From Rickettsiales bacterium (GTDB lineage Bacteria; Pseudomonadota; Alphaproteobacteria; Rickettsiales; JABIRX01): a stretch of DNA of 64,000 nucleotides. The position numbers were made by a program, and so were the translations under genes. The stretch lies in the NCBI GenBank assembly GCA_018659145.1, contig JABJNB010000085.1, forward strand, positions 124 through 64,123. Reading direction: 5' to 3'. Every line of letters starts with the position of its first letter. The stretch's first letter is position 1. Below the pieces are notes generated by a model, which made no database searches, was not told the origin of the DNA, and saw only the letters and a program-made list of their open reading frames with translations. This document shows positions 3,116-49,948 of the stretch, one piece after another.

Positions 3116-3440
3116 AGTGCAAGCGCGCGGGTCATTACTGCCAAGAGTAAAAACAGAATTATGCGACAAACATCCTTGTATAATACCAAATCCCATCTTT
3201 GTGAGTTGGTATGAGGATTTGCCCGAGAGGCAAATCCTCCGCGTAGCGTAAGGCATACGCGGCCTTAGAGCGCCCCATCTTAGAACCGCTTTTAAGATGG
3301 GAATTGGTATAACAAGGGTTCGGCGCGCAATAAAAAATGAATTTAATATTTTTTTAAACAAAGAATCATAGGAGCGGGGTTTTCCCGCCTAGAAGCATCG
3401 AGCTCGGTCTAGTGCGGGCGAGGGGAGCCCGCCCCTACGA
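3116..3440. repeat. Composite dispersed repeat (GC-rich palindrome P plus linker module L), inverted relative to the copies at 25.2 and 28.2 kb, carrying a nested insertion
   Basis: cattactgccaagagtaaaaacagaattatgcgac...acaagggttcggcgcgcaataaaaaatgaatttaat...ggagcggggttttcccgcc...gcccgcccctac aligns base-for-base with the reverse complement of 28148-28336 and 25222-25400, apart from the block 3184-3309. Confidence 0.8.
3184..3309. mobile_element. 126-bp MITE-like element nested inside the repeat
   Basis: Terminal inverted repeats taccaaatcccatctt (3184-3199) and aagatgggaattggta (3294-3309) match at 15 of 16 positions. The element interrupts the small hairpin cccttg..caaggg that is intact in the other two copies. 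Its interior has two further stems (gaggatttgcc/ggcaaatcctc and ccgcgta/tacgcgg). Confidence 0.6.
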
Positions 3441-18264: not shown

Positions 18265-18441
18265 GCAAAAGAACTATGCCTAGCAAGATATTCTCAATAT
18301 TAATTAAATATTGTAGAGACGCAAAATCTTGCTTCTGGTGAGTGCAAGATACAAATACATAATTATCGTCGAAATGTTGAGGAGATTGGAGTGTTTCTAT
18401 TTGTTTTAAGTTGGCCACCAGGCGGCATGATGATGCGTCTC
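18265..18441. repeat. Dispersed repeat, family R (copy 1)
   Basis: Shares long blocks with 29185-29378: caaaagaact.tgcctag, ctcaatattaatta, tattgtagagacgcaaaatcttgc, gatacaaatacataattatcgtcgaaat, ttggagt, tttaagttg and catgat.atgcgtctc. Confidence 0.7.
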
Positions 18442-21514: not shown

Positions 21515-22435
21515 TTAGAAGAGGAATCTATATGCGATAACAACTGAATTAATGACATAATCTCCAGATGCGGCATTGTCATAAGTAAAATTGATTTCAG
21601 CGTTTGCATCAAGATCTGTATAAGTTGTGCCACCTACAACCGCAGAATCAATCGGATAGTCGAGAGAGAAAGTAAAGTCACTGGTAATCATTACCGATGT
21701 TGCAAAAAGCTCTAAGGCCACTGATTTATTAAAGCGATATGTCATACCCATAGATGCTTGGACATAAGGGACGAAGTCATCTCCGAGGCCCGAGGTGGAG
21801 AAATAGCCGCCACCCACACCAAAGCCGATAAAAGGTGATATACTTTTCATGCCTCTTGGCCACTCTAATGCTAAATTAGCGCCGATATAATTAAACATGA
21901 GGGATGTATCGGAAGTGCTAAGGTCAAAAAAAGTATCCCCAATAGCATCCATCTCATCTAAGAATAAGCGCTTAGTACCGATTTCAACATCAAATCTAAT
22001 TAGCTCCCGATATTCAACACCAGTTTTTATAGCAAATCCAATCCCATCGCCAGAGGTTATATTAGTTGTGGTGTCGGTAAAATTATTTGTATCTGCGCCA
22101 ATGATTATGTTATTTGAGGAATCAGTAATATCGGTAGGGTACGTTAAGGAATCGACACTAATATCATTTATAGTGCCGCCAATATTATATGGTAGACTCA
22201 TGCCCATATAGAAACGGTATTTCTTTTGATTTGCCTCATACCACCAGAAGCTATGATCGCCTTCATATTGATCAACATGCAATGGTCCATAATCAGTTTT
22301 ATTTGCATTTGGTATATTAATTTGCCTCGGCACTGGGGCAGCATCTTCATATTCGAATACTAGTGCTTCCTCGGCCCTAAGATTTGTGCAAAGCAAAGAT
22401 AGCAATAATGATGTTATTAATAGCAGTGTACTCAT
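21515..22435 (-). CDS. Outer-membrane beta-barrel protein (unknown family)
   Basis: Signal peptide MSTLLLITSLLLSLLCTNLRAEE from the ATG at 22435 (the track start at 22468 is TTG). Alternating hydrophobic beta-strand pattern and the C-terminal aromatic signature YRFLF. Confidence 0.75.
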   Translation of the reverse strand: MSTLLLITSLLLSLLCTNLRAEEALVFEYEDAAPVPRQINIPNANKTDYGPLHVDQYEGDHSFWWYEANQKKYRFYMGMSLPYNIGGTINDISVDSLTYPTDITDSSNNIIIGADTNNFTDTTTNITSGDGIGFAIKTGVEYRELIRFDVEIGTKRLFLDEMDAIGDTFFDLSTSDTSLMFNYIGANLALEWPRGMKSISPFIGFGVGGGYFSTSGLGDDFVPYVQASMGMTYRFNKSVALELFATSVMITSDFTFSLDYPIDSAVVGGTTYTDLDANAEINFTYDNAASGDYVINSVVIAYRFLF

Positions 22436-22531
22436 AAAGTAATGCAGCGGTGATTTTGAGTTTAGCAATGTTTAATATGTTTAACTGAGTTTGTCATTAG
22501 TTAATATATTTATTATATTGAATTAATTATA

Positions 22532-22598
22532 GCGCGGCTCTCCCTTCTTGGAAGCATCGAGTTTAGTCTGCCAAGGGCCGCATACCCTGGTCCCTACA
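22532..22598. repeat. Degenerate copy of the GC-rich palindromic element overlapping the pgi stop codon
   Basis: gcgcggctctccc...ggaagcatcgagtttagtctgccaaggg...ccctggtccctac shares the central gaagcatcgag..ggtct block and the ccctac terminus with the P module. The terminal cta (22594-22596) is the complement of the pgi TAG. Confidence 0.5.
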
Positions 22599-25152: not shown

Positions 25153-25422
25153 GGACCTGTCCCGAATCAAAATCACAAATTTTTTTCTTCTTAACAATCC
25201 CTGCCAAAAAAACCAAAATTGCGTAGGGGCGTGGTCCTCCCAACCTTGGTAGAGCTATCTCGGTGTTTCTGGGCGGGAGGACCCAGCCCCTACGATTCTT
25301 TATTACAAAAATATTAAATCCATTTTTATTATGCGCCGAACCCTTGTTATGCAAGGGTGTTTGTCGCACAATCCTGCTTTTGCTCTAGGCAGTAATGCAC
25401 AAAATCTCGATCCTACGTAATG
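25153..25422. repeat. Composite repeat filling the whole metK/ahcY convergent spacer (left half of family T, then P palindrome, L module and ctcgatcctac linker)
   Basis: ggacctgtcccgaatcaaaatcacaaatttttttcttcttaa. Then the P arms gtaggggcgtggtcctccc / gggaggacccagcccctac (25223-25293). Then an L module collinear with 28227-28336. The composite ends at the base before the ahcY stop. Confidence 0.8.
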
Positions 25423-26724
25423 TTAGTAGCGGTAGTTATCATTTTTAAATGGACCGTCTTGCTTGATGCCGATATAATCAGCTTGTTTCTTAGATAATTT
25501 TGTTAATTTTACACCCAGTTGATCAAGATGTAATCTGGCAACTTTTTCGTCCAATTCTTTTGGTAGCACGTAAACTTGTTTTTTGTAAGTGCCTTGATTA
25601 TGGAACAATTCAATTTGTGCCAAGATTTGGTTAGTGAATGAATTACTCATTACAAATGCTGGGTGCCCGGTCGCGCAGCCTAGATTAACCAATCTTCCTT
25701 CCGCAAGTAAGATAATTTTATTACCATTTGGCAAAGTGATTTGATCAGTTTGTGGTTTGATGTTGGTCCATTCATATTGCCTTAATGATTCAACTGCAAT
25801 TTCATTATCAAAATGACCAATATTACAAACAATAGCATTATCTTTCATCTGCAAAATATGCTCATGAGCTATGATGTCGCAATTACCAGTTGTGGTTACA
25901 AATAAATCAATATTATCGACAACATCTTCTATTGTTTTGACTTCAAATCCTTCCATTGCGGCTTGAAGAGCGCAGATAGGATCAATTTCTGTGATGATAA
26001 TTCTAGCTCCTTGTCCTTGCAGAGCTTTGGCGCAACCTTTACCAACATCGCCATAACCACAAACTAAAGCCACTTTTCCAGCAAGCATTACATCAGTTGC
26101 TCTTTTTATACCATCTACTAAAGATTCTCGGCAGCCATATAGATTGTCAAATTTTGATTTTGTAACAGAGTCATTCACATTAATGGCTGGGATTTTTAGT
26201 GTGCCAGCTTCAGCCATTTGGTTTAACCTAAGTACTCCGGTTGTTGTTTCCTCGGAAACGCCTAAGATGTTTTCAAGTAAGTCTGGATATTGTTGATGCA
26301 TGATAGTAGTTAAGTCGCCGCCATCATCAAGCAGCATATTTGGGACCCAGCCATCTGCCTTGATTGTTTGCTCTATACACCATTTATATTCTGACTCTGT
26401 TTCGCCTTTCCAAGCAAAGACGGGAACTCCGGTTGCAGCTATTGCAGCTGCTGCATGATCTTGTGTTGAGAAGATGTTACAACTACTCCATCTGACATTT
26501 GCGCCCAGATGAACTAGGGTTTCAATTAAAACCGCAGTCTCAATTGTCATATGCAAACAGCCAATTATATTGGCGCCTTTAAGTGGCTTGCTTTCACCAT
26601 ATTCGACTCTTAAGGACATAAGTCCTGGCATTTCTTTTTCAGCGATATTAATAGCTAAGCGGCCAGAAGCAGCTAGATTGATGTCTTTTATATGATAATC
26701 CATTTGTGAGTTTTTATTAAGCAT
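25423..26724 (-). CDS. ahcY: Adenosylhomocysteinase
   Basis: Motifs [10 protein letters not shown], the NAD site GYGDVGKG, and GHFDNEI. The ATG at 26724 ([11 protein letters not shown]) has AGAGGT 7 nt upstream. The track start at 26760 adds 12 unconserved residues. Confidence 0.95.
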
Positions 26725-26846
26725 TGTTATTACCTCTATTAAGTTCGCCATATGTAACATTAGATAATTAGACTGTCAATTAAAGCTAATGCCAAAACTG
26801 GCTAACAAATCGTGCTTAATGTTTGTGTTTATTTATTTTATTAGAA

Positions 26847-27716
26847 TCATCTGCCTTGATTCTGACTTGGATTCTGACTTTGCTTAACCCTGTCTGTCCA
26901 TGTGGGTTTCGGCTTATCACCCTCTGCTAATTCTGCTTCTAATTCTGCATCTAATTCTTTTGCTAATTCTGCATCTAATTCTGCTTCTAATTCTTTTTCT
27001 GTATATTCTACAGAAGAATTAAGTGCATGAGATGCTTGCTCTGATACTTCTAGTGCTTGTTCTGCACGTGCTATATCTCGCTCTAATTTCTCTTGATAAT
27101 CAGGTTGGCCTGCTAATGCATCTTCCCCTCCTAACCGCGCGAACTCAGCTTCTAGCTCGAGATCTTCTAGTGCCGCCTGTTGATCTAACTCATCTTCTAG
27201 CTCGTCCTCTTCTAGTAATCTTGGGTCAACGCCTAATTCTTTTGCCAATTCTGCCAATTCTTCTTCGCTGACCTCATTTTCATCAAACACTTGACTCATT
27301 TGATTTATTTTCTGCCCTAATTTATCTGATTCTCTTTGAGCTGCTGCTAGGGCTTGATCTAATTGTGCATTTGCAGCATCTGTGACAAGTTTGCCTATCT
27401 CTGGATGAGTGCCCTTTTGCGTACTTAATGTGAATGCGGTTTCTATGGTTTCGGCCCCTGCTCTAGGCAGCGCTAATCTTAAGCCAAGACCTTCACTATC
27501 TAGAGTGTTTAGTTTTTTTAAATAACGTGCTACTGACAAAACATCATTAGTCTTAATTGCATTATGCAATTTAACCTTGTTTCTCTCTATCCTAGCTTCT
27601 GTGCTCTCAAACTGTTTTGTTACAAATTCTATTGCATTCTTGAAAGATTTCATTTTTTCCTCTATGTTAACGTTATATTTCCCGGCCTTTACTAGATTCT
27701 TGTCCATTTTGGACAC
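26847..27716 (-). CDS. Acidic coiled-coil protein, possibly ESCRT-III/Snf7-like; function unknown
   Basis: 289-aa ORF (GTG at 27716 or ATG at 27707). The N-terminal half is Lys-rich and helical, and the C-terminal half is extremely Glu/Asp/Leu/Ala-rich (EEELAELAKELG, DELEDELD, ELEAELDAELAKELDAELEAELAE). There is no enzymatic motif. Confidence 0.7.
   Translation of the reverse strand: MSKMDKNLVKAGKYNVNIEEKMKSFKNAIEFVTKQFESTEARIERNKVKLHNAIKTNDVLSVARYLKKLNTLDSEGLGLRLALPRAGAETIETAFTLSTQKGTHPEIGKLVTDAANAQLDQALAAAQRESDKLGQKINQMSQVFDENEVSEEELAELAKELGVDPRLLEEDELEDELDQQAALEDLELEAEFARLGGEDALAGQPDYQEKLERDIARAEQALEVSEQASHALNSSVEYTEKELEAELDAELAKELDAELEAELAEGDKPKPTWTDRVKQSQNPSQNQGR
26923..26994. repeat. 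Six tandem 12-nt units inside the acidic protein gene
   Basis: Units are tctgctaattct, gcttctaattct, gcatctaattct, tttgctaattct, gcatctaattct and gcttctaattct. They are in frame and encode the (E/D)(A/L)EL... periodic tail. Confidence 0.85.
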
Positions 27717-28147
27717 GGTCCTGCCACTTTATATTCCCCTGACCTTGTTCAATATTTTCTCTACCAACTCCTTCGCGCCAACGTTTAAAATCATTGCTAC
27801 TAGATAAGCTCTTATGCTCATTATTTGGGCTTGATGAAGATACTTGCTCTTGATTAGTCTTCTTTACTTCTTCTGCCCTCCTTTTCTCGTTGCTAAACGG
27901 CCACATGATTTTATTGGTAATAGATTTATAGTTCTGTAGCCTAAGGATAGCATTTTTTCTGATAGCAGTAAAGAATTAGTTGCGTTCGTGCAACTGCCTG
28001 GGGTGCAAATCGTTTTATCTCCGCTCTTGGGGCTGTACTATCGAAGTCTAATTGATATCTGTAGGGTGTTGCACTTCCACATTAGTGCCTAGAGTTAAAA
28101 ACTATTAATCAAAATCCTGCGCTTTTTCACAAATCTGACCAATATAC

Positions 28148-28336
28148 AAAATTGCGTAGAGGCGTTGTCCTCCCGCCATTGGCAGACCGATCTCGATGCT
28201 TCTGGGCGGGAAAACCCCACCCCTACAATTCTTTGTTGAAAAAAAATTAAATTCATTTTTTCTTGTGCGCCGAACCCGTTTTGCACAAGGGGTTCTATCG
28301 CATAATTCTGCTTTTACTCTAGGCAGTAATGTGCAC
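28148..28336. repeat. P palindrome plus L module (same orientation as the 25.2-kb copy)
   Basis: aaaattgcgtagaggcgttgtcctcccgcc...ctgggcgggaaaaccccacccctac, followed by aattctttgttgaaaaaaaattaaattcatttttt...gcgccgaaccc...ctctaggcagtaatgtgcac. Confidence 0.8.
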
Positions 28337-28491: not shown

Positions 28492-29225
28492 TTGCAAAAT
28501 CTATTTGGGCAAGGAGGCCCAAGTGGTATAAGCTCTTCTTCTGAGCATTGGAAAGATCTTACTAGCGTGATATTGTCTCTGCATAATGTGGCAGAAGGCT
28601 CTGTCGAGAAGTCCTGTCAGACAGGCGGAAAGAGAAAATCTTCTGCTAGTGAAATGCCTGATCAAGGTAAGAGGGCATTTGCTGCTGTAGAGGAGGATCC
28701 GATATTAAATTCAGCTTTAAGACGTGATGGAGATAGGAGGCCGGAACAAGTCTTTGCGAATGGTGTCATAAGAGAATTATATGATTTAACTAAGAGATCT
28801 GGAGGTTTGAATGATCAGGGCTTAATGTTGTTAGATTTGCCATTCTCAGACAGTCATCTAAAGATATCAAGACGGTATATTGGTTTTGATAAAAAAGGCG
28901 GTGTTCGAATAACCAATGGTCGGCGTCAAGAGGATGTTAATTCAGATCATTTAGCAGAAATAGTAGAGCATGTAGCGAATTTATATTTTTTTATGCCTCT
29001 TTGCCAATGGATAGAAGTATTATCAGTTATAATTATACTTTGGAAAAGAATTCAAGGGCTGATAGCATTTGCCTTACTAAAAGATTGGAGGCAGGTCAAG
29101 AGGAGAGCGTATTTTCGACATTACAGCCAATAACTCTAGCATTATTATCAGAGGATATAGATCATAAAGCGCTAAGCATAACTGACAAAAGAACTGTGCC
29201 TAGAAGGATATCCCCTCAATATTAA
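28492..29225 (+). pseudogene. Decayed paralog of the C-terminal module of the 867-aa protease-motif protein
   Basis: LLDLPFSDSHLKISRRYIGFDKKGGVRITNGRRQEDVNSDHLAEIVEHVAN aligns with LELPFSDSKIK..ISARHIGLDRDGSVQITNEKGKPDVSEAHLAEIRTHVAN of the neighbour. The alignment continues (SYNYTLE...FSTLQPITLALL vs CYDYIIDTE...FSALQPIPVELL) only after a frame change at the T7 tract 28986-28992. A further upstream piece from ATG 28419 lies in a third frame. Confidence 0.6.
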
Positions 29226-29378
29226 TTAATATTGTAGAGACGCAAAATCTTGCGTCTCTGAGGAGGTGGATACAAATACATAATTATCGTCGAAATATTG
29301 GGGAGGTTGGAGTATCTCGACTTATGGTTCTTATTTGCTTTAAGTTGCTAATCAGACGCATGATTATGCGTCTCTACA
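29185..29378. repeat. Dispersed repeat, family R (copy 2)
   Basis: Collinear with 18265-18441. It contains tgtagagacgca (29235-29246) ... tgcgtctctaca (29367-29378) as 12-bp inverted ends, and the hairpin agagacgca-aaatct-tgcgtctct. It supplies the last codons and the stop of the decayed paralog. Confidence 0.7.
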
Positions 29379-29389
29379 TTAATTTAGAT

Positions 29390-31993
29390 TTATTTTCCGT
29401 GACTAACCGGACCAACTTCTTGCTGATATCGATCTGCCAATGATTTATCACTCTGTTCTTGCAACTTTCTAGTCAAAAGTTCTACGGGTATTGGTTGTAA
29501 CGCTGAAAAAGCTATGCATGAAGAAGAATCTTCGCGTCTTTTAGTAACCTTAACGCCACCAGGAATCATTTCCGTATCTATAATATAGTCATAGCAGCTA
29601 GTTGATTGCGCGCTAGGTAGTGCTCCATAAAGATCTAATATATTTGCAACATGCGTTCTGATCTCAGCCAAATGTGCCTCACTTACATCTGGCTTACCCT
29701 TCTCATTAGTGATTTGCACACTGCCGTCTCTATCTAATCCTATATGCCGAGCTGATATTTTGGCTTGGCCATTTGCTTTAATCTTACTATCTGAAAATGG
29801 TAACTCTAATCGCATTAAACCATCCTTTAGAGATTGTGATTTACCCATTAAATGATAAAGAGTTATGATATCGTCTGTCGCAGACGCTGTTGGATGCGGG
29901 CTTAATGATAGTAGTGATCGGCTAGAGGCTGCTCTAGATTGCGTAAGTGGGCTTTGTGATAATCGTGAATATTTGATCAGAAAAGCTTGGATATCAGGAT
30001 TAGACCCTAGGCCTTCCTTCATATGTTGGATGATTCCTAGAAATGGCTGAAACTTAATATTGACGTCATGTTGTGTGTTAGCGCTCATCTTGGTGAACAA
30101 GTCATCACTTGTCTTGTTAAATCTTTTTATAAATACCATCATTTCATCTCTAGTTATATTTTTGATATTTATGGCTGTAATAGATTCCAAGATATTGAAA
30201 GGGCTTGCAAATGGGAGTAGCTTTATATTGCAATATTGCTGCTCTAAATATGCAATTTTTTGTTCAAAGAGTACAACAGTACTATTTGCGGTTTTATGAA
30301 ATTTTAGTGCATCCAGAGCAACTGCTTTATGTGTAATAAGCTCATTTAATAATTTTAATAATTTAGGTAACTTTTCTAAGTCTGGGCTTAGGAAGATGTT
30401 ATTAGTTGTTATATTAAAATCTTGTATAAATTGCCAAATGGTCTCGGGCGTTCCATATGTGAGTAGGTTGGGTAGTTCGAATGCAATAACGCCAATATCC
30501 TCAAAGGCTTGAGCGGAGTGAGGTGCAGCAGGTTTAGGCAAGGTTCGGCCCCACTGAAGATCGGGAGATATAATTACGCCGCCTAAATAAGTCATTATTA
30601 ATTCAGAAAATAGTAAATCTGGCCTAATATTTGCTGGGCGATTAAAATATTTATATACTGTGCTAAGCTTGTTATGTGGACTATGTTCTAGCATCATATC
30701 GGTGGCAGCGAGTAGGGCGTATTTATGTGAGTCATCTAAGGTTGATAATATTGCTGTATTGCCCTTGAGATATTGCTGGAGTAGTGCGACGTTAATTGTC
30801 GAGAGTGCTTGAAGGCTTGTGGGAAGTGCTAGGCTTCCTTTGTAATCGTTAAAACTTTGTTGTGGCACTGCCGCGTTTAGCATATCGATAAGTCTATCGC
30901 TTCTAGATCCGCTCAGTTGCAAGCAGTTGAGTCTTGCTTCGACTATCTCTTTTTGCTTGCTAGTGGGCATAAAGGCATTCTCTGCCAAACCTGTAATTCT
31001 ATTGTGGCCAGTAGTAATTCTTGGCGGAGAAGTTAGCACAAGATCTTTAATTAGGATGGCTACAGCAATTTGACAATCATTTGGCCCGGGCTGCTCATAA
31101 CATGGCTTGACTATATGGTCAGCCTCAAGGGCTTTTCTGCCATGCTTGATGGCTTCTCTTGCTCCAATATTCTCGGCAATTACCTCTAAAACTGCCACAG
31201 CTCTATCGAGAGATTTTGGATTAGTTCTGGTAATATCCATCATTGCTTGGTGTAAGCATTTTTTATGAAAAAGATCTTCACCCTCTGCTGTATATGGTAG
31301 AGAATTATAAAGTGAGATTACAGGTGAATCCTCATTCGTAAAGTCGAGGGCAAATAACACATAATGGTCTATAGAAGCATTTGTCCTCCTAAAGAGTAGG
31401 CTCATATATAGTTGCTTTATAGCTGGGTTATCCAAACCTTCTTTAAATGTATCTGTGCTAGTTATGGTGTATTTTTCTTGGGTATCTGGAGATGCTGCTG
31501 CGCCTTGAGATGTCTTTCGTAATTCGCCTGTAAAATTACCGATAAAAATACCCGGAGGAATCTGGTGATCTACTAGCAACAACTCTTTAACAATGATATC
31601 TGGTGATTGATCGATTTGAAAATGATGATCAACGATCGCGATGCAGCCATTTGCAAATTTTCCCGTAGAAGTTTGCGTTATACCAGAGCTATCAGATCTA
31701 GAAATGATCGTACTGGTATTAACTTTTGGCAATAATATGGCATGAGGGATATCTTGAATGGTGCGTCTTTGTTCTTCGGTTAAGAAGGTCTGTCTTACAC
31801 TATCCATAATGTTGATTATTTTAAAGCCTTCACCGCTATCTAATTTTCTGAGAAACTCTGCTTCACCATTTGATCTGAGATCTGTAAGGTAGGCATAATA
31901 TTCGTAATCGTCAAAGCCGGAGATTTTGGATAAAACTTCGATAAAATCATTATAATATTGAAATTTTATTGAAATTTTTGTGGCTGCGCGCAT
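29390..31993 (-). CDS. Large secreted-effector-like protein with a Ulp1/CE-clan cysteine protease (deSUMOylase/deubiquitinase-type) signature
   Basis: 867 aa, ATG start. Residues 209-232 DHYVLFALDFTNEDSPVISLYNSL parallel yeast Ulp1 HWALGIIDLKKKTIGYVDSL. Residues 299-311 YEQPGPNDCQIAV parallel Ulp1 PQQPNGYDCGIYV, with the same Gln-to-Cys spacing of 6. No other domain is recognised. Confidence 0.85.
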   Translation of the reverse strand: MRAATKISIKFQYYNDFIEVLSKISGFDDYEYYAYLTDLRSNGEAEFLRKLDSGEGFKIINIMDSVRQTFLTEEQRRTIQDIPHAILLPKVNTSTIISRSDSSGITQTSTGKFANGCIAIVDHHFQIDQSPDIIVKELLLVDHQIPPGIFIGNFTGELRKTSQGAAASPDTQEKYTITSTDTFKEGLDNPAIKQLYMSLLFRRTNASIDHYVLFALDFTNEDSPVISLYNSLPYTAEGEDLFHKKCLHQAMMDITRTNPKSLDRAVAVLEVIAENIGAREAIKHGRKALEADHIVKPCYEQPGPNDCQIAVAILIKDLVLTSPPRITTGHNRITGLAENAFMPTSKQKEIVEARLNCLQLSGSRSDRLIDMLNAAVPQQSFNDYKGSLALPTSLQALSTINVALLQQYLKGNTAILSTLDDSHKYALLAATDMMLEHSPHNKLSTVYKYFNRPANIRPDLLFSELIMTYLGGVIISPDLQWGRTLPKPAAPHSAQAFEDIGVIAFELPNLLTYGTPETIWQFIQDFNITTNNIFLSPDLEKLPKLLKLLNELITHKAVALDALKFHKTANSTVVLFEQKIAYLEQQYCNIKLLPFASPFNILESITAINIKNITRDEMMVFIKRFNKTSDDLFTKMSANTQHDVNIKFQPFLGIIQHMKEGLGSNPDIQAFLIKYSRLSQSPLTQSRAASSRSLLSLSPHPTASATDDIITLYHLMGKSQSLKDGLMRLELPFSDSKIKANGQAKISARHIGLDRDGSVQITNEKGKPDVSEAHLAEIRTHVANILDLYGALPSAQSTSCYDYIIDTEMIPGGVKVTKRREDSSSCIAFSALQPIPVELLTRKLQEQSDKSLADRYQQEVGPVSHGK

Positions 31994-32219: not shown

Positions 32220-33710
32220 ATGATTAGAGTTAAAGATTTGGCTATTGCATTTAATGGTCAGCCGATTTTTGAAGATGTGAATGTCCATTTTAATCCGGGA
32301 GAGAAGATTGGTTTAATTGGCCGTAATGGTAGTGGTAAATCTACTTTCTTAAAAATTTTATTGGGAAAATTAGAGCCAGACCTTGGTAAGGTAGAAATTT
32401 CTAATAATTATCGAATTGGTTATTTGGAGCAGCATTTGAGTTTCTCGCATTCCACCGTTTTGGATGAAATTGCGAGTGTGCTTCCAGAAGAGCGAATTTA
32501 TGAAGTTTGGAAAGGCGAGATGATTTTGCATGGACTTGGCTTTACAGATGAAGACTTCCAAAAAGATCCAAAAGACTTTTCAGGTGGTTATCAGGTAAAA
32601 ATCAATTTAGCAAAACTGCTTTTAGTTGAACCGGAATTATTGCTTTTAGATGAGCCTACCAATTATCTTGATATTCATTCAACAAAATGGCTTAAGAAAT
32701 TTCTTCAAGATTGGGAAGGTGAACTGATTCTAATTACGCATGATCGTCTTTTTATGGATAGCATTATCACCCATACTCTGAATGTGCATAGGGGACAGTT
32801 CCGTAAAATTCCGGGTAACACAAAGAAAATCAAAGATCAAATAGAGCAGGAAGAAGATATCTATGAAAAAACTCGTGTAAATCAAGAGAAGCAAAGGCAA
32901 AAAACTCAAGAATGGGTTGATAGATTTAAATCAAAGGCAAGTCAGGCAAGTAGGGCTCAGTCTAAGATGAAGGCTTTAGAGCGAGAAGGTGTGATGGAGA
33001 AATTGGATGATGTTGCCACATTAGATTTTCAATTTAATTACGAGCCATATGAAAGCCGCGAAAGTCTAGTGCAGACTAAAGCCGTAAATTTTGGTTATAA
33101 TGAAACTGAAACTCTAATTAAAAATTTATCTTTTGCGGTTAATAAAGGTGATAAAATTTGCGTGGTCGGTAAGAATGGTAAGGGTAAATCCACTTTACTT
33201 AAATTACTTGCTCAGGAAATGAAGGCAAGTTCTGGTACCGTAACGCAGCATGATAAAGTCAAGGTTGGATATTTTGGGCAGATGAATATTGATCGCTTGG
33301 ACCCGAAGAGGTCAGTTTGTGAAGAGATACAAACGGCAAGTCCTGGAGCTCCAATTGCTAATGTTAGGCGTACCTGCTCTAATGTAATGTTTTCGGGAGA
33401 TAATGCTCATAAGAAAGTTTCTGTATTATCTGGTGGTGAGAAGAGCCGCGTGATGCTAGGTAAAATTTTGTTACAACCGGTTAATTTGTTATTTTTAGAT
33501 GAGCCAACCAATCACTTAGATATGGAATCAGCTGAAGCACTTATGAATGCCGTGCAGGGGTTTAAAGGCTCTATTGTGATGGTTACGCATGATGAGTTCT
33601 TCTTAAAGAAAATAGCTAATAAGCTAATTGTTTACGATGAAGGGCGCGTGTTTATGTATGATGGCGACTATAAGACTTTTTTAAGGAAAGTTGGCTGGAA
33701 GGACGTTTAG
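32220..33710 (+). CDS. ABC-F family ATPase (no membrane domain)
   Basis: Two Walker A motifs (GRNGSGKST and GKNGKGKST) and two signatures (FSGGYQ and LSGGEK). A charged helical linker (QEKQRQKTQEWVDRFKSKASQASRAQSKMKALE) lies between the two modules. Confidence 0.9.
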   Translation: MIRVKDLAIAFNGQPIFEDVNVHFNPGEKIGLIGRNGSGKSTFLKILLGKLEPDLGKVEISNNYRIGYLEQHLSFSHSTVLDEIASVLPEERIYEVWKGEMILHGLGFTDEDFQKDPKDFSGGYQVKINLAKLLLVEPELLLLDEPTNYLDIHSTKWLKKFLQDWEGELILITHDRLFMDSIITHTLNVHRGQFRKIPGNTKKIKDQIEQEEDIYEKTRVNQEKQRQKTQEWVDRFKSKASQASRAQSKMKALEREGVMEKLDDVATLDFQFNYEPYESRESLVQTKAVNFGYNETETLIKNLSFAVNKGDKICVVGKNGKGKSTLLKLLAQEMKASSGTVTQHDKVKVGYFGQMNIDRLDPKRSVCEEIQTASPGAPIANVRRTCSNVMFSGDNAHKKVSVLSGGEKSRVMLGKILLQPVNLLFLDEPTNHLDMESAEALMNAVQGFKGSIVMVTHDEFFLKKIANKLIVYDEGRVFMYDGDYKTFLRKVGWKDV

Positions 33711-33831: not shown

Positions 33832-35021
33832 ATGGATAAAAAGAAAGTAGCTTTGTTTTTTGGTGGGAATTCCGCTGAACATGATATCTCTATTATAACG
33901 GCTTTATCTGTGTCGGGTGCAATTGATTCTCTTAAATATGAAGTTATTCCTGTTTATGCAGATAAGCAAAATAGGTTTTACAGTGGCGTAGAGTTATTAG
34001 ATCGTAGTAATTATTATTTATCAGAGAAAACCAAAAGTTCTGTTGATACGGTGGAGATTGTGATCAATCCGGCTAATGGTAGTCCGTCACTTAGGGTGGT
34101 AAATGACTCACGTTTTGCCAAAGCTAATATATAGATTTTGATATAGCCATGCCAGCATTTCATGGTGGTAGTGGTGAGGATGGAGCTTTTGTTGGCTTGC
34201 TTGAGTTTTTAAATATTCCCTATAGTGGGCCAAGAGCAATGGCCTCAAAGATTGTGATGAATAAATATATCGCAAAGGAATTATTCCGAAGCTGTGGAAT
34301 TAATGTTTTGCCAAGCAATCTTTTAACTCGTGATAATGAAGCGGAGTTCTTAGACTTAGATAGTTATGTTGATCAAGTAACGCTTAGCTACCCACTCTGT
34401 GTTAAGCCTTGCAATCTTGGTAGCTCGATTGGTGTTAATTTAGCTAAAGATGAGCTTGAGCTTAAATCTGCAATTACAGAGATTTTTAAAATAGATAATC
34501 AAATATTAGTTGAACCTTGTGTCGAGAATCTGGTGGAATTTAATGTATCGGTCAGCAGATCCTTTGGGGGTTTTAAAATTTCAGCTATTGAAAAGCCACT
34601 TCGAGAAGGCGATATATTAGATTTTAAAACAAAATATCTCAATGGTAAAACTAGAAAGGCTAAGTTATCGGTACCAAGTTCTGAGGGGATGGCCTCACTC
34701 TCGCGTGAATTAAATCCAGCTGAATTAACAGCTAAGCAAGAAGATCTTATCAAGTCTTATTCGCAAGCTGCTTTTGAACTTATCTGTGGAGCTGGCGCCC
34801 CTAGAATTGATTTTTTATGCGATAGTAAAACAGGCGAGATTTGGTTAAATGAAATTAATCCACTGCCCGGTTCTTTTGGTTACTACCTATGGGAAGCAGC
34901 GGAGCCTAAGGTTAATTTTACGAAATTACTTACGGGATTGATAGAGGAAGGATTTAGCCTCGATCAAAGCAGCAAAACTATTACGGACTCGGTACAAACC
35001 GGCAGTAATATTTTTGATTGA
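33832..35021 (+). pseudogene. ddl: D-alanine--D-alanine ligase, interrupted by a frameshift in a TA repeat
   Basis: ORF 33832..34134 (MDKKKVALFFGGNSAEHDISI...) and ORF 34149..35021 (..HGGSGEDGAFVGLLEFLNIPYSGP.., KPCNLGSSIGV, EINPLPGS) are the two halves of Ddl. The second frame is already open from 34128 (YIDFDIAMPAFHGG). Removing one TA from atatata (34127-34133) gives an uninterrupted ...AKANIDFDIAMPAFHGG. Confidence 0.7.
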
Positions 35022-35023
35022 TA

Positions 35024-35188
35024 CAAGGGGCGGGGTTTTGCAGGTTGTGTCGTAATTACATAATTCTTTGTGTAAAAAAACATTAAATTCATCATTAATA
35101 CGGAATGTTGTACGTCGGGGCGCGGGGTCCTCCCGCCCTTGGCAAGAGCGATCTTGATGCTTCTAGGCGGGAAAGCCCCGCCCCTAGG
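35024..35188. repeat. Composite repeat filling the ddl/asnB-like convergent spacer
   Basis: Half palindrome aaggggcggggtttt, an L-module fragment aattctttgtgtaaaaaaacattaaattcatcatt, then a full P palindrome cggggcgcggggtcctcccgccc...aggcgggaaagccccgcccctagg (35113-35188). Confidence 0.75.
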
Positions 35189-45413: not shown

Positions 45414-47249
45414 TTATTTATTTTGAGTAGTTAGAAATTCAATGTCTTCAATATAAAAGCAAATCTTTTCATTACTAGGGTTTTTTAATACAAACCTAAC
45501 GTATTTATGATCTTTTTGAAAATTATGAGATAATTCATATGATTTAAATTCAGGTGTGATTTTAATTATCTTGCCTATACCTTCCCGTGGAGAGGGGCCA
45601 TGTCTATCGACTTGTAATATTAATTTATCGCTTTTGCTTTCTTTCCCTAATCTGATTTGTGCCGTGAACTTATAATCTTTTGAATTGAATGGTTGGTAGT
45701 CCAGTACAGCCGAATTTTTTTCTTCGAAGCATATTTTATTGGCCTTTAAATTTGTTTTTACATTTCGTTCCTTTCTTAGTTTATAAGTTGGAGGAAGGCC
45801 TAGGCTTGTAATGGTATTATGTAGAAATGTATTTTCGGCTTCAACTTTGCTTAAAGAGGGGTCGTTAGGTATCTTAATTGTGACATTGTTAAAATTTGTA
45901 TATGATTTTTTATTTGTAAATGTGACGGAGAAGTTACCACATCCTATTTGTTCTTTTGAAATTATATGGCAGCCTTTTTCTAATAAAAATACTGGGATCC
46001 CAAACTGAAAACTTGTCCATAACCATCTGGCCGGGTCGCCATAGATGAAATCAACATTTTTTTGCTCTTGTAGTAAAATGTTGGCTATTATTTTATTAGT
46101 ACCAACCCTATTCCTAGGAATGAGTTCTTCGTTAGGCTTCAGTTTTGTATATTCTGATAGATAGCCGCTATAATATCTATAGCCGTCATGGGTGCCTATT
46201 TTGGGCCCCATAGGGATTAGTATATGCAGGAGCAATAAACCACAAATAGCAAAGTAGTATTTCTTTGCTATATTGTACTGCGATAGGTTAAAGAGAATGA
46301 AAATGATAGCAAAGTACATCAAGCCTAAAGCATAGGTTGGTGATGTAAAATTCTTAGTAGGGTATAAAGCCGCTATGATGCCTAGAATATATAAAAACAA
46401 TTCTAGATGTTTCTTTTTTGCATGATATTTAAGACTGGAAAAGCACAATGATATGATAAGTAAGCCATAAGTTACATAGTTAAATAATATTGAGAAAACG
46501 TAGAGGTTTTTTTCTTTTGGCCAGTAGCTACTATCAGACATAGTTCTGGACATGTGTTCAATAATATTCTGCAAATTAAGTAATGAAAAGTCTGTTAGAA
46601 CAGCCAGACATGCAAATGTGCTTAAGGTGCTAATAGATATGATTGCGGCATCTGTGAAAAATACTGATAATTTCTTCTTATATTTATTTGAGTCGTATAA
46701 ATACGCAGTCAGTAATATTGCGTATAAGCAAAAATCTATTCTGGCAAAAACTGATAATGCAAAGCAGGTGCCACATATTAGGGCATAAAAATGATTGGTG
46801 TTATATTTTAATTTCTTAGTAAAATAGAGGGTGAGGAGTAAGAAAAAAGCAGCGAGGACATGCGTGTTATAATATAGACCCGAGAATATTAATTCTTGCG
46901 TGGATACAAATACTAGAGCAAATAAAATTATTGAAGATTTTTCTTTAATATAGTCTCTAGCAATCAATGCGCAGATCAAGAAATTTAAGGAAGCTAGCAA
47001 TGCAATAAAATAGTACAAAAACTTAGCTTGTTCGCCGAAAATATTGTAAATAAAATTACCGAGATAAAAAATTAGAGGTTGAGCAGATAGATTGTATTTA
47101 AAGGTATCGTAATTTAGAGTAATAGACCCATATATTAACGAGGCCCCATCTTCATCATAGAAGGTATTTCCTGTGTGCAAAAATAAGAAGGCTAAAATTG
47201 TAAAAAATGATATATAGATTATATTATTTTGATTCAAAGAATGGGACAT
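45414..47249 (-). CDS. GT-C-fold (ArnT/PMT-like) polytopic glycosyltransferase candidate with a C-terminal beta-sandwich (CBM-like) domain
   Basis: About 11 hydrophobic helices in residues 1-400, with an acidic first-loop motif FYDEDGASLIY. The soluble tail of about 200 aa ends ...YVRFVLKNPSNEKICFYIEDIEFL, a pattern typical of jelly-roll carbohydrate-binding modules. Confidence 0.7.
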   Translation of the reverse strand: MSHSLNQNNIIYISFFTILAFLFLHTGNTFYDEDGASLIYGSITLNYDTFKYNLSAQPLIFYLGNFIYNIFGEQAKFLYYFIALLASLNFLICALIARDYIKEKSSIILFALVFVSTQELIFSGLYYNTHVLAAFFLLLTLYFTKKLKYNTNHFYALICGTCFALSVFARIDFCLYAILLTAYLYDSNKYKKKLSVFFTDAAIISISTLSTFACLAVLTDFSLLNLQNIIEHMSRTMSDSSYWPKEKNLYVFSILFNYVTYGLLIISLCFSSLKYHAKKKHLELFLYILGIIAALYPTKNFTSPTYALGLMYFAIIFILFNLSQYNIAKKYYFAICGLLLLHILIPMGPKIGTHDGYRYYSGYLSEYTKLKPNEELIPRNRVGTNKIIANILLQEQKNVDFIYGDPARWLWTSFQFGIPVFLLEKGCHIISKEQIGCGNFSVTFTNKKSYTNFNNVTIKIPNDPSLSKVEAENTFLHNTITSLGLPPTYKLRKERNVKTNLKANKICFEEKNSAVLDYQPFNSKDYKFTAQIRLGKESKSDKLILQVDRHGPSPREGIGKIIKITPEFKSYELSHNFQKDHKYVRFVLKNPSNEKICFYIEDIEFLTTQNK

Positions 47250-47491: not shown

Positions 47492-49948
47492 ATGAACAAA
47501 AATAGTGGTGATCAGGCTATCAGTTGCCAAATGAAAAAACAAATTTGTTGTATAGGTACAGGGGTATTGATCCTAGTATCAATTATGATGCTGATATTTT
47601 ATCCGTCCATTTTGCAAAATAAAAAATACGGATTAGTCCCTTTGGAGCAAAGTAAAGCTATGGATGAAAATGCATATCAGGTTTTGAGAGAAAATATGCC
47701 AGATTATAGCATATTTTCTATGAAAAATAATTTAGATTTTAATGCTGATTATGTAAACTTGCATTTGCCTAAGTTGCAGACACAGAATAAGGCCTTGTCA
47801 AGAAATCGGATACCAGCTTATGACGAGAGTAGAATCTTGGGTTTAAGTTTACTAGGACATCCTTTGGCCGATCCTTTTAATCCTTTGAATTTTTTCTTTA
47901 GTTCGTTTGAACCTGGGCATACAATTCTTCTTAAGAATATTTCGTATTTGTTACTTGGGTTGATTTTCTATATTGTGCTTATATTTAAGCTTAATATTAC
48001 TAATAATATTTGGCTGGTTATCTCCGGAGCTTTTCTTTATGTGTTAATGCCTAATAGTATTTATTATCTGCATTGGGATAATTATATAGGGCTAACAATG
48101 GTACTGCCACTGATATTTATAGGAATAGTTGATCTCTTCAAGAAAAATTGGCCCGCTGCTTTATTATATTTAACTGCCGCTGGGTCCTTTTCCTTCTTAT
48201 TCAATATGTTTGAATTATTTTGTTACAGTATAATTTTTACAACTATTTTTTTTACGGCCCTAGCTTTAAAGGAAGTTAGGTCATTTAAGGATATTGGATT
48301 GGTAGTAGGCTTAATTTTTGTTGCAGCTTCACTGATAATTTTGATTTCATTTCCTCAGATTTCTTACAGCATTGAATACCTGTCTGAATTAACTAGATCA
48401 GGTCATTTTAATTGGGATGTTTATGTAAAGAGGCAGGCTTATTATCCAAAGCATGAAAGTCAGCTTTTGGGCCTGCTTGGCTTTCCGGTGATATGGAAAA
48501 CGCAGCATAATATTTTTGCTAATTTGGCAATCATATTCTCAATAGTGGTTGCGCTTACAAATTATAAAAAATTAAGCAATGTGATGAAGGCAATATCAGT
48601 TACCTTTCTTTGTAGCTTTGTCTTCCTATTTGTCGGATTTATAGATCTTCCTTTGCAGTTGTTTAATTTTTATAACTTATTCGCTAATCAAATCCGTTCG
48701 CTCTATATTTTAACTTTCCTGGGATCTATTTTATTTATCTATGGTTGCGATACTCTATTATTTGAGAAAGAGACAATATCTTGGGGCTTTTTACGAAACA
48801 ACCTTAGCAAAGTTTTGGCTATTATGGTGCTACTTCATGTAGTTATAATTTTATATTTTTACTTAGGTTTGAATGTTTTTCATTTCTCCTCTAGGCTATC
48901 CTGGTACCAAGACTTGCTTAATCAAAATTATTATTTGTTAGCTATAATTGCGACTCCAATTTTTATGTTAATTTTGTGGAGCAATATACAGAATCACTAT
49001 TATGCCAGAAGGTTATTAATTTGTATTCCTTTGTGTATCATAGCGCCATTATTGATTTTTGCTAAAATGACAGTGCCATTTTATAGTGATGACGATGTGC
49101 TTTCTTTGCAGGTAAATAATCATAAAAGCTTTTCTACTAGAGCAATTCTAATTGACCAAAAAAATGAAGCAAAATGCCCTAATTGCTGGCAAAAAGATTT
49201 GGGCACTATCCTTTGGAGCATGGGAGAGGTGCCCATAACAGGTTACGATACAGGGATTAAGGGTAAAACAACGGAAATTTTCAGAGAGTTTTGGAAGGAT
49301 GAAGATTATAATACTCTAGCTTTAAATCCTAGGTTTAGCTGGATTCATTGGCAAGATTATTGGATACCTCCAACATCTAAAAAGTTAATTACTCGTAATG
49401 CTAAGGGTAGTTTTATTCAATCGAATATGATTAAAAAAATGCAAATTTTGGGAGTCTCGAGAATTTATACCAATTATCAGTTGAGTAATTTGGATATTAA
49501 AGATCGTTTTTATAATATGGATTTATATGATCTTGGCTTTGAAACTCCATTTTCGATAGTGAGTAATTGTGAAATCGTGGATATAGAGAGATCAATATTA
49601 AATAGTGAAAGCTTTGCTCAGAATGATTGTATAATTAATGATGTATCATACAATCAGATAAGTTTTAATGATGGTTTGCCTCAATTTCATATGCAAAATC
49701 AGCTAGCTTTTTTAGTGATCCCGTATGATTTTCCAGGGTCATTCTACCTGCTTGATCAAGATAGTAATATTAGGTTGGCAGAGAGTGGAGCTACAGGGTT
49801 TTATATTGTTGATTTAAAAGAGCATAATAATTTGGGCATTAATTTTGATCATGAATCTTTGTGGAATAAGATAAAGGTAGCATTATTAGGGTTGTTTTTA
49901 TTGATAATTATGTTCTTTTTGCTTAGACGTCTTTATGTAAAAACATAA
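47492..49948 (+). CDS. Large polytopic membrane protein, YfhO/GT-C-like candidate
   Basis: 818 aa. Many TM helices in residues 20-540, then a soluble region of about 250 aa, then a final C-terminal TM anchor (VALLGLFLLIIMFFLL). This is the topology typical of YfhO-type lipid-linked-sugar transferases. No catalytic motif verified. Confidence 0.7.
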   Translation: MNKNSGDQAISCQMKKQICCIGTGVLILVSIMMLIFYPSILQNKKYGLVPLEQSKAMDENAYQVLRENMPDYSIFSMKNNLDFNADYVNLHLPKLQTQNKALSRNRIPAYDESRILGLSLLGHPLADPFNPLNFFFSSFEPGHTILLKNISYLLLGLIFYIVLIFKLNITNNIWLVISGAFLYVLMPNSIYYLHWDNYIGLTMVLPLIFIGIVDLFKKNWPAALLYLTAAGSFSFLFNMFELFCYSIIFTTIFFTALALKEVRSFKDIGLVVGLIFVAASLIILISFPQISYSIEYLSELTRSGHFNWDVYVKRQAYYPKHESQLLGLLGFPVIWKTQHNIFANLAIIFSIVVALTNYKKLSNVMKAISVTFLCSFVFLFVGFIDLPLQLFNFYNLFANQIRSLYILTFLGSILFIYGCDTLLFEKETISWGFLRNNLSKVLAIMVLLHVVIILYFYLGLNVFHFSSRLSWYQDLLNQNYYLLAIIATPIFMLILWSNIQNHYYARRLLICIPLCIIAPLLIFAKMTVPFYSDDDVLSLQVNNHKSFSTRAILIDQKNEAKCPNCWQKDLGTILWSMGEVPITGYDTGIKGKTTEIFREFWKDEDYNTLALNPRFSWIHWQDYWIPPTSKKLITRNAKGSFIQSNMIKKMQILGVSRIYTNYQLSNLDIKDRFYNMDLYDLGFETPFSIVSNCEIVDIERSILNSESFAQNDCIINDVSYNQISFNDGLPQFHMQNQLAFLVIPYDFPGSFYLLDQDSNIRLAESGATGFYIVDLKEHNNLGINFDHESLWNKIKVALLGLFLLIIMFFLLRRLYVKT

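What the first reader, a model, noticed from the sequence alone, without database searches (positions are those of the whole stretch)
29390..31993. 867-aa protein with a Ulp1-like (CE clan) cysteine protease signature: candidate deSUMOylase/deubiquitinase effector
Seen: H210 in DHYVLFALDF, N230 in ISLYNSL, Q301 and C307 in YEQPGPNDCQIAV (His codon 31364-31366, Cys codon 31073-31075). The order His - Asp/Asn - Gln - Cys, the hydrophobic context and the Gln-to-Cys spacing of 6 are those of yeast Ulp1 (H514, D531, Q574, C580), as I recall it.
Established: CE-clan proteases in bacteria (ChlaDUB1, SseL, ElaD, XopD, RickCE, Legionella LotB-type) are secreted effectors acting on host ubiquitin/SUMO/NEDD8, some with acetyltransferase activity. 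Bacteria themselves lack these modifiers.
Notable: Asn replaces the canonical Asp. About 550 further residues have no recognisable domain, and the gene lies in a repeat-flanked islet between ahcY and an ABC-F gene.
Basis: partly seen in the sequence, partly recalled or inferred. Interest (0 to 1): 0.65.

Follow-up and report, generated by a model that had tools for sequence, protein, structure and literature searches.

The report
Orphan protein with protease-like motif
A real, apparently transcribed 867-residue gene of an uncultured marine alphaproteobacterium has no detectable relatives and carries a short motif resembling the active site of Ulp1-type cysteine proteases; the motif is rarer than chance, but no profile or structure test confirms it, and nothing supports a host-targeting effector.

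Summary
ORF 29390-31993 (-) encodes 867 aa with H210, N230, Q301 and C307 at the stated codons.

A three-block motif test built only from known CE-clan proteases picks this same H/N/C triple as the best in the protein. It scores 16.4 bits with five C48 references (0/1407 real decoys, 10/5000 shuffles). It scores 25.4 bits when ElaD and SseL are added (0/20000 shuffles).

Every stronger test is negative or uninformative:
- Pfam, NCBIfam, local hmmsearch --max and hhalign give no significant match.
- Two further conserved CE blocks are absent.
- Both AlphaFold models are unusable (pLDDT 36 and 43).
- No homologue exists among 5.8 billion proteins, apart from a strain variant and the neighbouring paralogue.

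The effector reading has no support. The organism looks metabolically self-sufficient, and the window shows no secretion system.

Asn at the third catalytic position is not new: ASFV pS273R has it, and so do ElaD and SseL by alignment. LotB is an OTU enzyme, not CE. The flanking repeats are intergenic repeats found throughout the window.

The C-terminal ~150 aa is a lineage-specific module duplicated in an adjacent frameshifted gene.

My estimate is about 0.35 that residues ~185-330 form a very divergent CE-type thiol enzyme. Otherwise the motif is chance.

The parts
29390..31993 (-). 867-aa ORF (ATG start, purine-rich stretch GAGAAGAAGAG just upstream); lineage-specific orphan gene
   Evidence: The only database relatives are itself, a 96% strain fragment and the neighbouring paralogue. 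Contigs of X1-X3 match without gaps. pN/pS is about 0.38. An RNA contig covers 31086-31281.
31004..31441 (-). Residues ~185-330: candidate, unproven CE-type catalytic core with H210-Y211, N230, Q301 and C307
   Evidence: The three-block PSSM optimum over the whole protein falls here. Low-confidence AF2 predicts a beta-hairpin at 210-217/225-233. No HMM or HH support.
31364..31366 (-). His210 codon, followed by Tyr211 (aromatic 'gatekeeper' position)
   Evidence: PMC7391069 for the gatekeeper concept.
31304..31306 (-). Asn230 codon (third catalytic position; Asp in Ulp1, Asn in ASFV pS273R and, by alignment, in ElaD and SseL)
   Evidence: PMC9866604.
31073..31093 (-). Gln301 to Cys307 (QPGPNDC), the putative oxyanion Gln and nucleophile Cys
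   Evidence: hhalign's only local hit aligns this stretch to Ulp1/SENP8 Q-x5-C, at P 0.15 and 0.075.
29450..29869 (-). Residues 709-848: C-terminal module of unknown fold, shared with the adjacent gene
   Evidence: tblastn gives 47% identity at E 3e-15, plus 30% identity at E 1e-3 in a second frame. Alignment A2 shows 42% identity. No Pfam or PDB match.
28492..29225 (+). Convergent paralogue of the C-terminal module, frameshifted in a T7 run (28986-28992); probably a decaying gene
   Evidence: The frameshift site is spanned without differences by X1 and X2 contigs.
29228..29384 (.). Repeat E2: two hairpins with 28-nt inverted arms between the two convergent genes; multi-copy
   Evidence: Inverted repeat I1. 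Depth about 77x against about 5x for the flanks. A second copy lies at 18298-18441.
28078..28333 (.). Repeat E1: MITE-like element with 22-nt terminal inverted repeats, upstream of the paralogue; multi-copy
   Evidence: Inverted repeat I3. Depth 60-80x. Further partial copies lie at 25214-25397, 3133-3410, 35062-35186 and 22551-22578.
26847..27716 (-). 289-aa acidic coiled-coil orphan ORF with a 12-nt tandem repeat, in the same stretch between ahcY and the ABC-F gene
   Evidence: No Pfam hit. Four metatranscriptome contigs lie on it or just beside it.

Best explanation
The gene is a genuine, apparently transcribed, fast-evolving protein specific to one lineage of uncultured marine Alphaproteobacteria.

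The most likely specific mechanism is inferred, not shown. Residues ~185-330 would form a very divergent CE-type (circularly permuted papain-like) thiol enzyme:
- His210 sits at the start of a beta-strand.
- Asn230 sits at the end of the neighbouring strand and orients the His.
- Gln301 contributes to the oxyanion hole.
- Cys307 is the nucleophile.
- Tyr211 restricts the P2 position to Gly-like residues.

Such an enzyme would cleave a peptide or isopeptide bond after a small-residue C-terminal tail. Alternatively, like YopJ and LegCE, it would use the same site to transfer an acyl group.

The roughly 350-residue region that follows (mostly helical in a low-confidence model) and the C-terminal ~150-residue module, which is duplicated next door, would provide targeting or substrate binding. 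The substrate is unknown. Nothing indicates that it is a eukaryotic modifier.
For: The catalytic order H - N - Q-x5-C and the residues are as stated. A PSSM scan built from known CE proteases alone finds H210/N230/C307 (or Q301) as the global optimum in three versions:
- 16.0 bits, shuffle P 0.017, 2/1407 decoys.
- 16.4 bits, P 0.002, 0/1407 decoys.
- 25.4 bits, 0/20000 shuffles, decoy maximum 15.5.

Under the C48-only PSSM the true catalytic blocks of the validated CE deubiquitinases ElaD and SseL score only 11.5 and -18.6 bits. ElaD finds no C48 chain by phmmer. CE families are therefore mutually invisible by sequence, and the target resembles C48 more than they do.

An aromatic residue follows the His (PMC7391069). 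Asn at the third position is precedented (PMC9866604). The AF2 domain model, though low in confidence, predicts a hairpin with H210 at the start and N230 near the end. The only hhalign local hit is the Cys motif. The gene is under purifying selection and an RNA contig covers it.
Against: There is no significant profile match of any kind. The extended hhalign alignment does not put H210 on the catalytic His.

Two independent conserved CE blocks are absent: the strand before the His (phi-phi-P-I-N, P=0.44) and the WLND-type helix (P=0.13). Three near-invariant C48 positions differ: Trp after His becomes Tyr, the Asn two residues after the Gln (Q-x-N) becomes Gly, and Gly after Cys becomes Gln. 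The N230-C307 spacing of 77 exceeds the 35-58 seen in all seven references.

Both AF2 models are unusable, and the domain model puts a strand where CE has the Cys helix. Foldseek finds nothing. I fixed the block limits and spacing windows of the motif test after seeing the target.
Confidence: 0.35

Rival explanations
1. The motif is a chance match. The protein is a lineage-specific, largely alpha-helical, non-CE protein, such as a structural, adaptor or other unknown-fold protein. It sits in a small flexible stretch of orphan genes and decaying paralogues between ahcY and the ABC-F gene.
For: All profile and structure tests are negative or uninformative. The independent blocks B0 and BN are absent. 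The loose pattern is common by chance, at 1-2% of proteins. With the SENP8-weighted PSSM the shuffle P is only 0.017. Low-confidence AF2 predicts mostly helices. Neighbouring genes are also orphans or pseudogenes. Relatively relaxed selection, pN/pS 0.38.
Against: The same triple is the global optimum in every version of the PSSM scan. It exceeds all 1407 real decoys in two versions, by 10 bits in the seven-reference version. The hydrophobic context, the aromatic residue after His, the NS[L] after the second strand and the D-C pair all agree with CE families.
Confidence: 0.45
2. The protein is a CE-fold enzyme that is a secreted effector removing eukaryotic ubiquitin, SUMO or NEDD8 in a protist or animal host.
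For: It shares the motif evidence above. Known bacterial CE enzymes are mostly effectors embedded in large multidomain proteins (PMC4961225). Among the UvrA relatives that carry a more specific name than Alphaproteobacteria or Proteobacteria are Rickettsiales, Rickettsiaceae and Jidaibacter MAGs, at 65-67% identity.
Against: No secretion-system, ankyrin, LRR or other eukaryote-like genes occur in 64 kb. The window and a 74%-UvrA relative with a 1.5-Mb contig encode broad biosynthesis: the Met cycle, Arg, His, NAD, pantothenate, folate and O-antigen. That is untypical of obligate intracellular bacteria. There is no signal peptide or transmembrane segment by eye. The samples are open marine and estuary metagenomes.
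Confidence: 0.08
3. The active site has a papain-like (CA-clan) arrangement: Q301 and C307 work with a downstream His (H330, H422, H436 or H439) instead of H210 and N230.
For: Q-x5-C is also the papain Gln19-Cys25 spacing (my knowledge). Several His residues lie downstream.
Against: None of the downstream His residues is followed by an aromatic residue or sits in a recognisable His/Asn motif. No CA-clan family hits in Pfam or the PDB.
Confidence: 0.04
4. The protein is part of a conflict system (toxin, defence or phage-derived cargo). The duplicated C-terminal module would be the shared delivery or recognition part.
For: An orphan gene with an inverted, decaying partial duplicate next to it and MITE-like repeats around it.
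Against: PADLOC and PHROGs give no meaningful hits. No relatives occur in viral contigs, phages or plasmids. No immunity-like small ORF or integrase is evident. GC is 38.6% against 36.0% for the window, so composition is not foreign.
Confidence: 0.08

Closest known systems
Ulp1/SENP family (MEROPS C48, Pfam PF02902; Ulp1 H514/D531/Q574/C580)
   Same: The order His, acid/amide, Gln-x5-Cys is the same. HYVLFALDF resembles HWALGIIDL, LYNSL resembles YVDSL, and QPGPNDC.I.V resembles QPNGYDCGIYV. The C48-derived PSSM scores the triple at 16.4 bits.
   Different: No profile match. Tyr replaces the invariant Trp, Asn replaces Asp, Gln replaces the Gly after Cys, and the QxN Asn is missing. The WLND helix and the P-I-N strand are not found. 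The Asn-to-Cys spacing is 77, against 44-53 in Ulp1, SENP1 and SENP8.
ElaD / SseL (bacterial CE-clan deubiquitinases)
   Same: Asn sits at the third catalytic position in the same local context: ElaD ...VIFNSL, SseL ...LIFNTY, target ...SLYNSL. All are bacterial proteins with the CE core embedded among other regions. They too are undetectable from C48 by sequence.
   Different: No sequence match to ElaD or SseL. A PSSM built from those two alone gives 10.9 bits, within the null range. They keep HW, the P-I-N / V-N-T strand and C-G. They belong to enterobacteria: SseL is a Salmonella effector, and ElaD is encoded in the E. coli chromosome.
ASFV pS273R protease (CE clan; His168/Asn187/Cys232, Gln226)
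   Same: A His/Asn/Cys triad with Q-x5-C and His-to-Asn spacing of 19, against 20 here (residue numbers from PMC9866604).
   Different: It is a viral polyprotein-processing enzyme. No sequence comparison was run here, so the resemblance rests on residue numbers only.
RickCE (Rickettsia bellii CE deubiquitinase)
   Same: An alphaproteobacterial large multidomain protein with an internal CE core, and with long insertions tolerated in the fold (PMC4961225).
   Different: RickCE was recognisable as CE by sequence, and it is an effector of an obligate intracellular bacterium. No similarity to the target was detected in PDB searches.

Membership tests
Peptidase C48 (Ulp1/SENP, PF02902) | Significant match to the family profile | tested here: not met
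   Pfam gives 0 hits at E<=10 for the whole protein and for four pieces. A local HMM of 125 C48 sequences run with --max gives scores of -1 to -3 bits. hhalign gives P=0.15 and 0.075, with probability below 1%.
Peptidase C48 (Ulp1/SENP, PF02902) | Invariant residues around the active site (H-W, D-S, Q-x-N, D-C-G) | tested here: not met
   Of the A1 invariant columns, the target keeps H, L, S, Q, D and C. It has Y for W, N for D, G for the Q-x-N Asn and Q for the Gly after Cys.
Peptidase C48 (Ulp1/SENP, PF02902) | N-terminal WLND substrate-tunnel helix and the phi-phi-P-I-N strand before the His | tested here: not met
   Block scores fall within the null range: B0 P=0.44 and BN P=0.13.
Clan CE (fold level) | Catalytic residues in the order His, Asp/Asn/Glu, Gln, Cys, with Gln six residues before Cys | tested here: met
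   H210, N230, Q301 and C307. This is the global optimum of the three-block PSSM scans.
Clan CE (fold level) | Aromatic 'gatekeeper' residue directly after the catalytic His (for Ubl/DUB-type members) | tested here: met
   Y211. The criterion is from PMC7391069, which also notes that it does not separate proteases from acetyltransferases.
Clan CE (fold level) | CE fold: His and Asp/Asn on adjacent strands of a central sheet, Cys at the N-terminus of a helix, triad residues adjacent in space | tested here: inconclusive
   AF2 full length has pLDDT 36 and the 184-362 domain has pLDDT 43. The hairpin 210-217/225-233 is predicted, but 308-315 is modelled as a strand. Foldseek against the PDB gives a best E of 0.47 and no CE chain. 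No homologues exist for an alignment.
Clan CE (fold level) | Cys-dependent isopeptidase, peptidase or acyltransferase activity | not testable with these tools
   Needs recombinant protein with C307A, H210A and N230A controls.
Secreted bacterial effector acting on host Ub/Ubl | Dedicated secretion system and/or a host-associated lifestyle | tested here: inconclusive
   None appears in the 64-kb window. A relative's UvrA neighbourhood and the window encode broad biosynthesis. The rest of the genome was not available.
Bacterial Ubl-conjugation operons (Bil/Bub/CBASS-type) with a deconjugating peptidase | Adjacent E1, E2 and Ubl genes | tested here: not met
   The neighbours are metK, ahcY, an orphan coiled-coil gene, the paralogue, an ABC-F gene, ddl and asnB. 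PADLOC gives no hit.

The most novel reading that the evidence does not exclude
The protein founds a new, sequence-isolated family of the CE clan (His/Asn/Cys, Tyr gatekeeper, long insertion before the Cys loop). It occurs in an apparently free-living, streamlined marine alphaproteobacterium. It would act not on a host modifier but on a bacterial or phage substrate with a small-residue tail, or process its own lineage-specific C-terminal module.
Probability: 0.15. Interest if true: 0.6.

Novelty: new variant of a known kind. Interest (0 to 1): 0.3.

Why it matters
If the CE assignment were confirmed, it would extend Ulp1-type enzymes to a planktonic, apparently free-living marine bacterium. 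That bacterium has no evident host and no evident Ubl system, which raises the question of what such enzymes cleave outside host-pathogen settings. It would also give an example of a CE family invisible to all current profiles.

If the motif is chance, the case is a useful caution. A four-residue catalytic signature in the right order occurs in 1-2% of proteins. Even a context-aware match near P of 1e-3 cannot carry a functional annotation for an orphan protein.

Tried and rejected
Searches that found nothing:
- Homologue searches: 5.8 billion clusters returned only the query itself. Exhaustive phmmer over 1.84 billion representatives returned only a 96% fragment and the neighbouring paralogue. 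JGI metagenome contigs returned only the same sequence. Viral contigs, plasmids and phages returned nothing.
- Family libraries: Pfam and NCBIfam gave nothing, and PHROGs and PADLOC gave nothing meaningful.
- PDB by sequence gave nothing for the whole protein or the 173-aa core. The C-terminal module profile gave nothing in the PDB or Pfam.

Structure: single-sequence AF2 of the full length and of residues 184-362 was too poor to use. Foldseek on the domain model returned noise. I did not feed AF2 an alignment of C48 proteins with the target forced in. The result would follow the alignment and be circular.

Profiles: I collected a C48 family with a five-seed profile, but it came back as almost only vertebrate SENP8. 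HMMs and hhalign from it showed nothing significant.

Islet reading rejected: GC is not deviant, and the flanking repeats E1 and E2 recur in other intergenic regions of the window.

Taxonomy: the ahcY-based scan gave at most 72% identity, to assorted MAGs. UvrA gave unnamed marine relatives at 71-88%, and Rickettsiales-labelled MAGs only at 65-67%. Exact-sequence look-ups of window proteins were not on record.

Promoter and terminator scans were at background level.
Full report
**1. The observation**

The ORF 29390..31993 on the minus strand is real: ATG start, 867 codons, no internal stop.

The recalled Ulp1 numbering is right. My Ulp1 403-621 and SENP8 sequences matched PDB 1EUV and 1XT9 at 100%. 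Columns H112, D129, Q172 and C178 of alignment A1 are Ulp1 H514, D531, Q574 and C580.

Several results show a genuine coding gene:
- Contigs of three independent runs match the gene without gaps.
- A roughly 97-98% strain variant carries an in-frame 3-nt deletion.
- 28 listed strain variants give pN/pS of about 0.38.
- A metatranscriptome of the same study has a 196-nt contig at 31086-31281. It also has contigs on ahcY, the neighbouring coiled-coil gene and the ABC-F gene.

**2. The protein is an orphan**

Pfam and NCBIfam give no hit even at E<=10, for the whole protein; Pfam gives none for four pieces either. The PDB by sequence gives nothing.

The 5.8-billion-cluster search returns only the protein itself. 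The exhaustive phmmer run over 1.84 billion representatives returns two proteins: a 152-aa fragment, 96% identical, which is a strain variant, and a 213-aa protein, which is the neighbouring ORF. JGI metagenome contigs hold only the same sequence. Viral contigs, plasmids and phages hold nothing.

**3. Is the motif more than chance?**

That is ordinary.

I then built position-specific scores for three blocks: around the His, around the Asp, and from the Gln to past the Cys. They came from known CE proteases only. I searched the whole protein for the best co-linear combination.

| Reference set | Score | Shuffles reaching it | Real decoys reaching it |
|---|---|---|---|
| SENP8-weighted, 125 sequences | 16.0 bits | 336/20000 | 2/1407 |
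| Five equally weighted C48 references | 16.4 bits | 10/5000 | 0/1407 (1/1407 reversed) |
| Same plus ElaD and SseL | 25.4 bits | 0/20000 | 0/1407 (maximum 15.5) |

As a calibration, the true catalytic blocks of ElaD and SseL score only 11.5 and -18.6 bits under the C48-only matrix. Both are validated CE deubiquitinases of another family. ElaD also finds no C48 chain by phmmer. Lack of profile similarity is therefore normal between CE families, and the target looks more C48-like than they do.

Tyr211 fits the aromatic gatekeeper position after the catalytic His (PMC7391069).

Two caveats apply. I fixed the block limits and spacing windows after seeing the target. A reader scanning a window can also recognise many different signatures.

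**4. Tests that failed or could not decide**

- Local HMMs of C48 run with all filters off give negative bit scores.
- hhalign gives one local hit, the Cys motif, at P=0.15 and 0.075. When extended, it aligns DHYVLFALDF to the WLND helix of SENP8 rather than to the catalytic His.
- Two further conserved CE blocks were not used in the selection, so they are independent tests. Neither is present: the phi-phi-P-I-N strand before the His (P=0.44) and the WLND-type helix (P=0.13).
- Three near-invariant C48 positions differ: W to Y, the QxN Asn to G, and the Gly after Cys to Q.
- The Asn-to-Cys distance of 77 is longer than the 35-58 in any of the seven references.
- With no homologues, AlphaFold had a one-sequence alignment. 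pLDDT was 36 for the full length and 43 for residues 184-362.
- The domain model does predict a hairpin at 210-217/225-233, with the His at its start and the Asn near its end. It also puts a strand where CE has the Cys helix. Foldseek finds nothing, with best E 0.47. The structural test is therefore inconclusive.

**5. Surroundings**

The stretch between ahcY (25423-26760) and the ABC-F gene (32220-33710) holds, in order:
- A 289-aa acidic coiled-coil orphan with a 12-nt tandem repeat.
- Repeat E1 (28078-28333), with 22-nt terminal inverted repeats.
- A convergent gene, 28492-29225.
- Repeat E2 (29228-29384), made of two hairpins.
- The 867-aa gene.

The convergent gene is a paralogue of residues 709-848 of the 867-aa protein. 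tblastn gives 47% identity at E 3e-15, continuing in another frame at 30% identity. The frameshift-corrected alignment shows 42% identity. The frameshift lies in a T7 run at 28986-28992. Two other assemblies span it unchanged. So the '550 residues without a domain' end in a lineage-specific duplicated module.

E1 and E2 are multi-copy, at 60-80x depth against about 5x for the flanks. They recur in other intergenic regions of the window. They do not mark an island. GC is not deviant: 38.6% for the ORF against 36.0% for the window.

**6. Organism and the effector idea**

The sequence comes from marine metagenomes. UvrA has unnamed marine relatives at 71-88% identity, a 'MAG Alphaproteobacteria' at 77%, and Rickettsiales-, Rickettsiaceae- and Jidaibacter-labelled MAGs at 65-67%.

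A relative with 74% identical UvrA lies on a 1.5-Mb contig. Its SSB-UvrA-ArgD-ArgF-PanB neighbourhood is syntenic with the window. That neighbourhood also holds genes for His, NAD and folate synthesis and a pilin. The window itself encodes the methionine cycle, Arg, pantothenate, Asn and Gln synthesis, and a large O-antigen cluster.

No secretion system, E1/E2/Ubl gene or eukaryote-like domain is present. This looks like a streamlined, self-sufficient bacterium. The 'secreted effector on host Ub/SUMO' reading therefore has no support here, although the rest of the genome is unseen.

**7.

- LotB (Lpg1621) is an OTU enzyme (PMC7690952; PMC7391069 places lpg1621 in the OTU cluster). Legionella CE members are the SidE-family DUB domains, LegCE, lpg1148 (LupA) and lpg1949.
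- Asn in the triad is precedented: ASFV pS273R uses His168/Asn187/Cys232 (PMC9866604), and ElaD and SseL have Asn by alignment.
- Bacteria do have Ubl-conjugation systems (PMC10557695; 10.1101/2023.09.04.556158; PMC11601603).
- CE enzymes can be acetyltransferases using the same site (PMC4961225, PMC7391069).

**8. Verdict**

It is the only evidence. Membership of C48 was tested and not met. Membership of the CE clan at fold level could not be tested.

I put about 0.35 on a very divergent CE-type thiol enzyme, whether protease or acyltransferase. I put about 0.45 on a chance motif in a protein of another fold. The remainder goes to minor rivals.

The finding is of modest interest until orthologues, a structure or an assay exist.

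Noticed in passing
window 28492-29225 (+), T7 run at 28986-28992: The gene convergent with the 867-aa ORF encodes a paralogue of its C-terminal ~150 residues (42-47% identity). It is interrupted by a frameshift in a run of seven T. X1 and X2 contigs span the site unchanged, so it is a real pseudogene or a slippage site.
   Followed up: partly
window 28078-28333; further copies at 25214-25397, 3133-3410, 35062-35186, 22551-22578: E1 is a MITE-like element of about 256 bp with 22-nt terminal inverted repeats. It has several partial copies in intergenic regions of the window. Metagenome contig depth over it is 60-80x, against about 5x for the flanks. No Rfam family matches it.
   Followed up: partly
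window 29228-29384; second copy at 18298-18441: E2 is a repeat of about 155 bp made of two hairpins (28-nt inverted arms). It lies between the convergent genes, at about 77x depth. It may act as a bidirectional terminator, but the consensus terminator scan did not call it.
   Followed up: partly
window 33832-35021 (ddl), position 34125: D-Ala-D-Ala ligase is split into two ORFs in the window. Contigs of X1, X2 and X3 all carry one extra A after 34125, which would restore the frame. The window sequence therefore has at least one single-base indel that the population does not share.
   Followed up: yes
window 26847-27716 (-): A 289-aa very acidic coiled-coil orphan protein with a 12-nt tandem repeat encoding (E-L-x-A)n. 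There are no Pfam hits and only coiled-coil noise in PADLOC. Four metatranscriptome contigs lie on it or just beside it.
   Followed up: partly
window 30873 (inside the 867-aa ORF, about codon 374): A divergent strain in run X5 has an in-frame 3-nt deletion. The listed strain variants cluster in the Ser/Thr/Ala-rich linkers (residues 160-166 and 692-717). None of the listed variants falls between codons 167 and 364, though 28 further variants were not listed.
   Followed up: partly
window 45414-47249 (-), 47492-49948 (+), 55060-56436 (+), 341-1624 (-), 21515-22468 (-): Five further long ORFs (611, 818, 458, 427 and 317 aa) have no Pfam match at E<=1e-5. Three of them sit in or next to the O-antigen / glycosyltransferase cluster at about 38-63 kb.
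   Followed up: no
locus L082 / L083 (ENA contigs of about 1.5 Mb): Relatives with 74% identical UvrA lie on contigs of 1.50-1.51 Mb. Their SSB-UvrA-ArgD-ArgF-PanB neighbourhood is syntenic with the window. They could serve to test whether ahcY and the ABC-F gene are adjacent where the orphan genes are missing.
   Followed up: no
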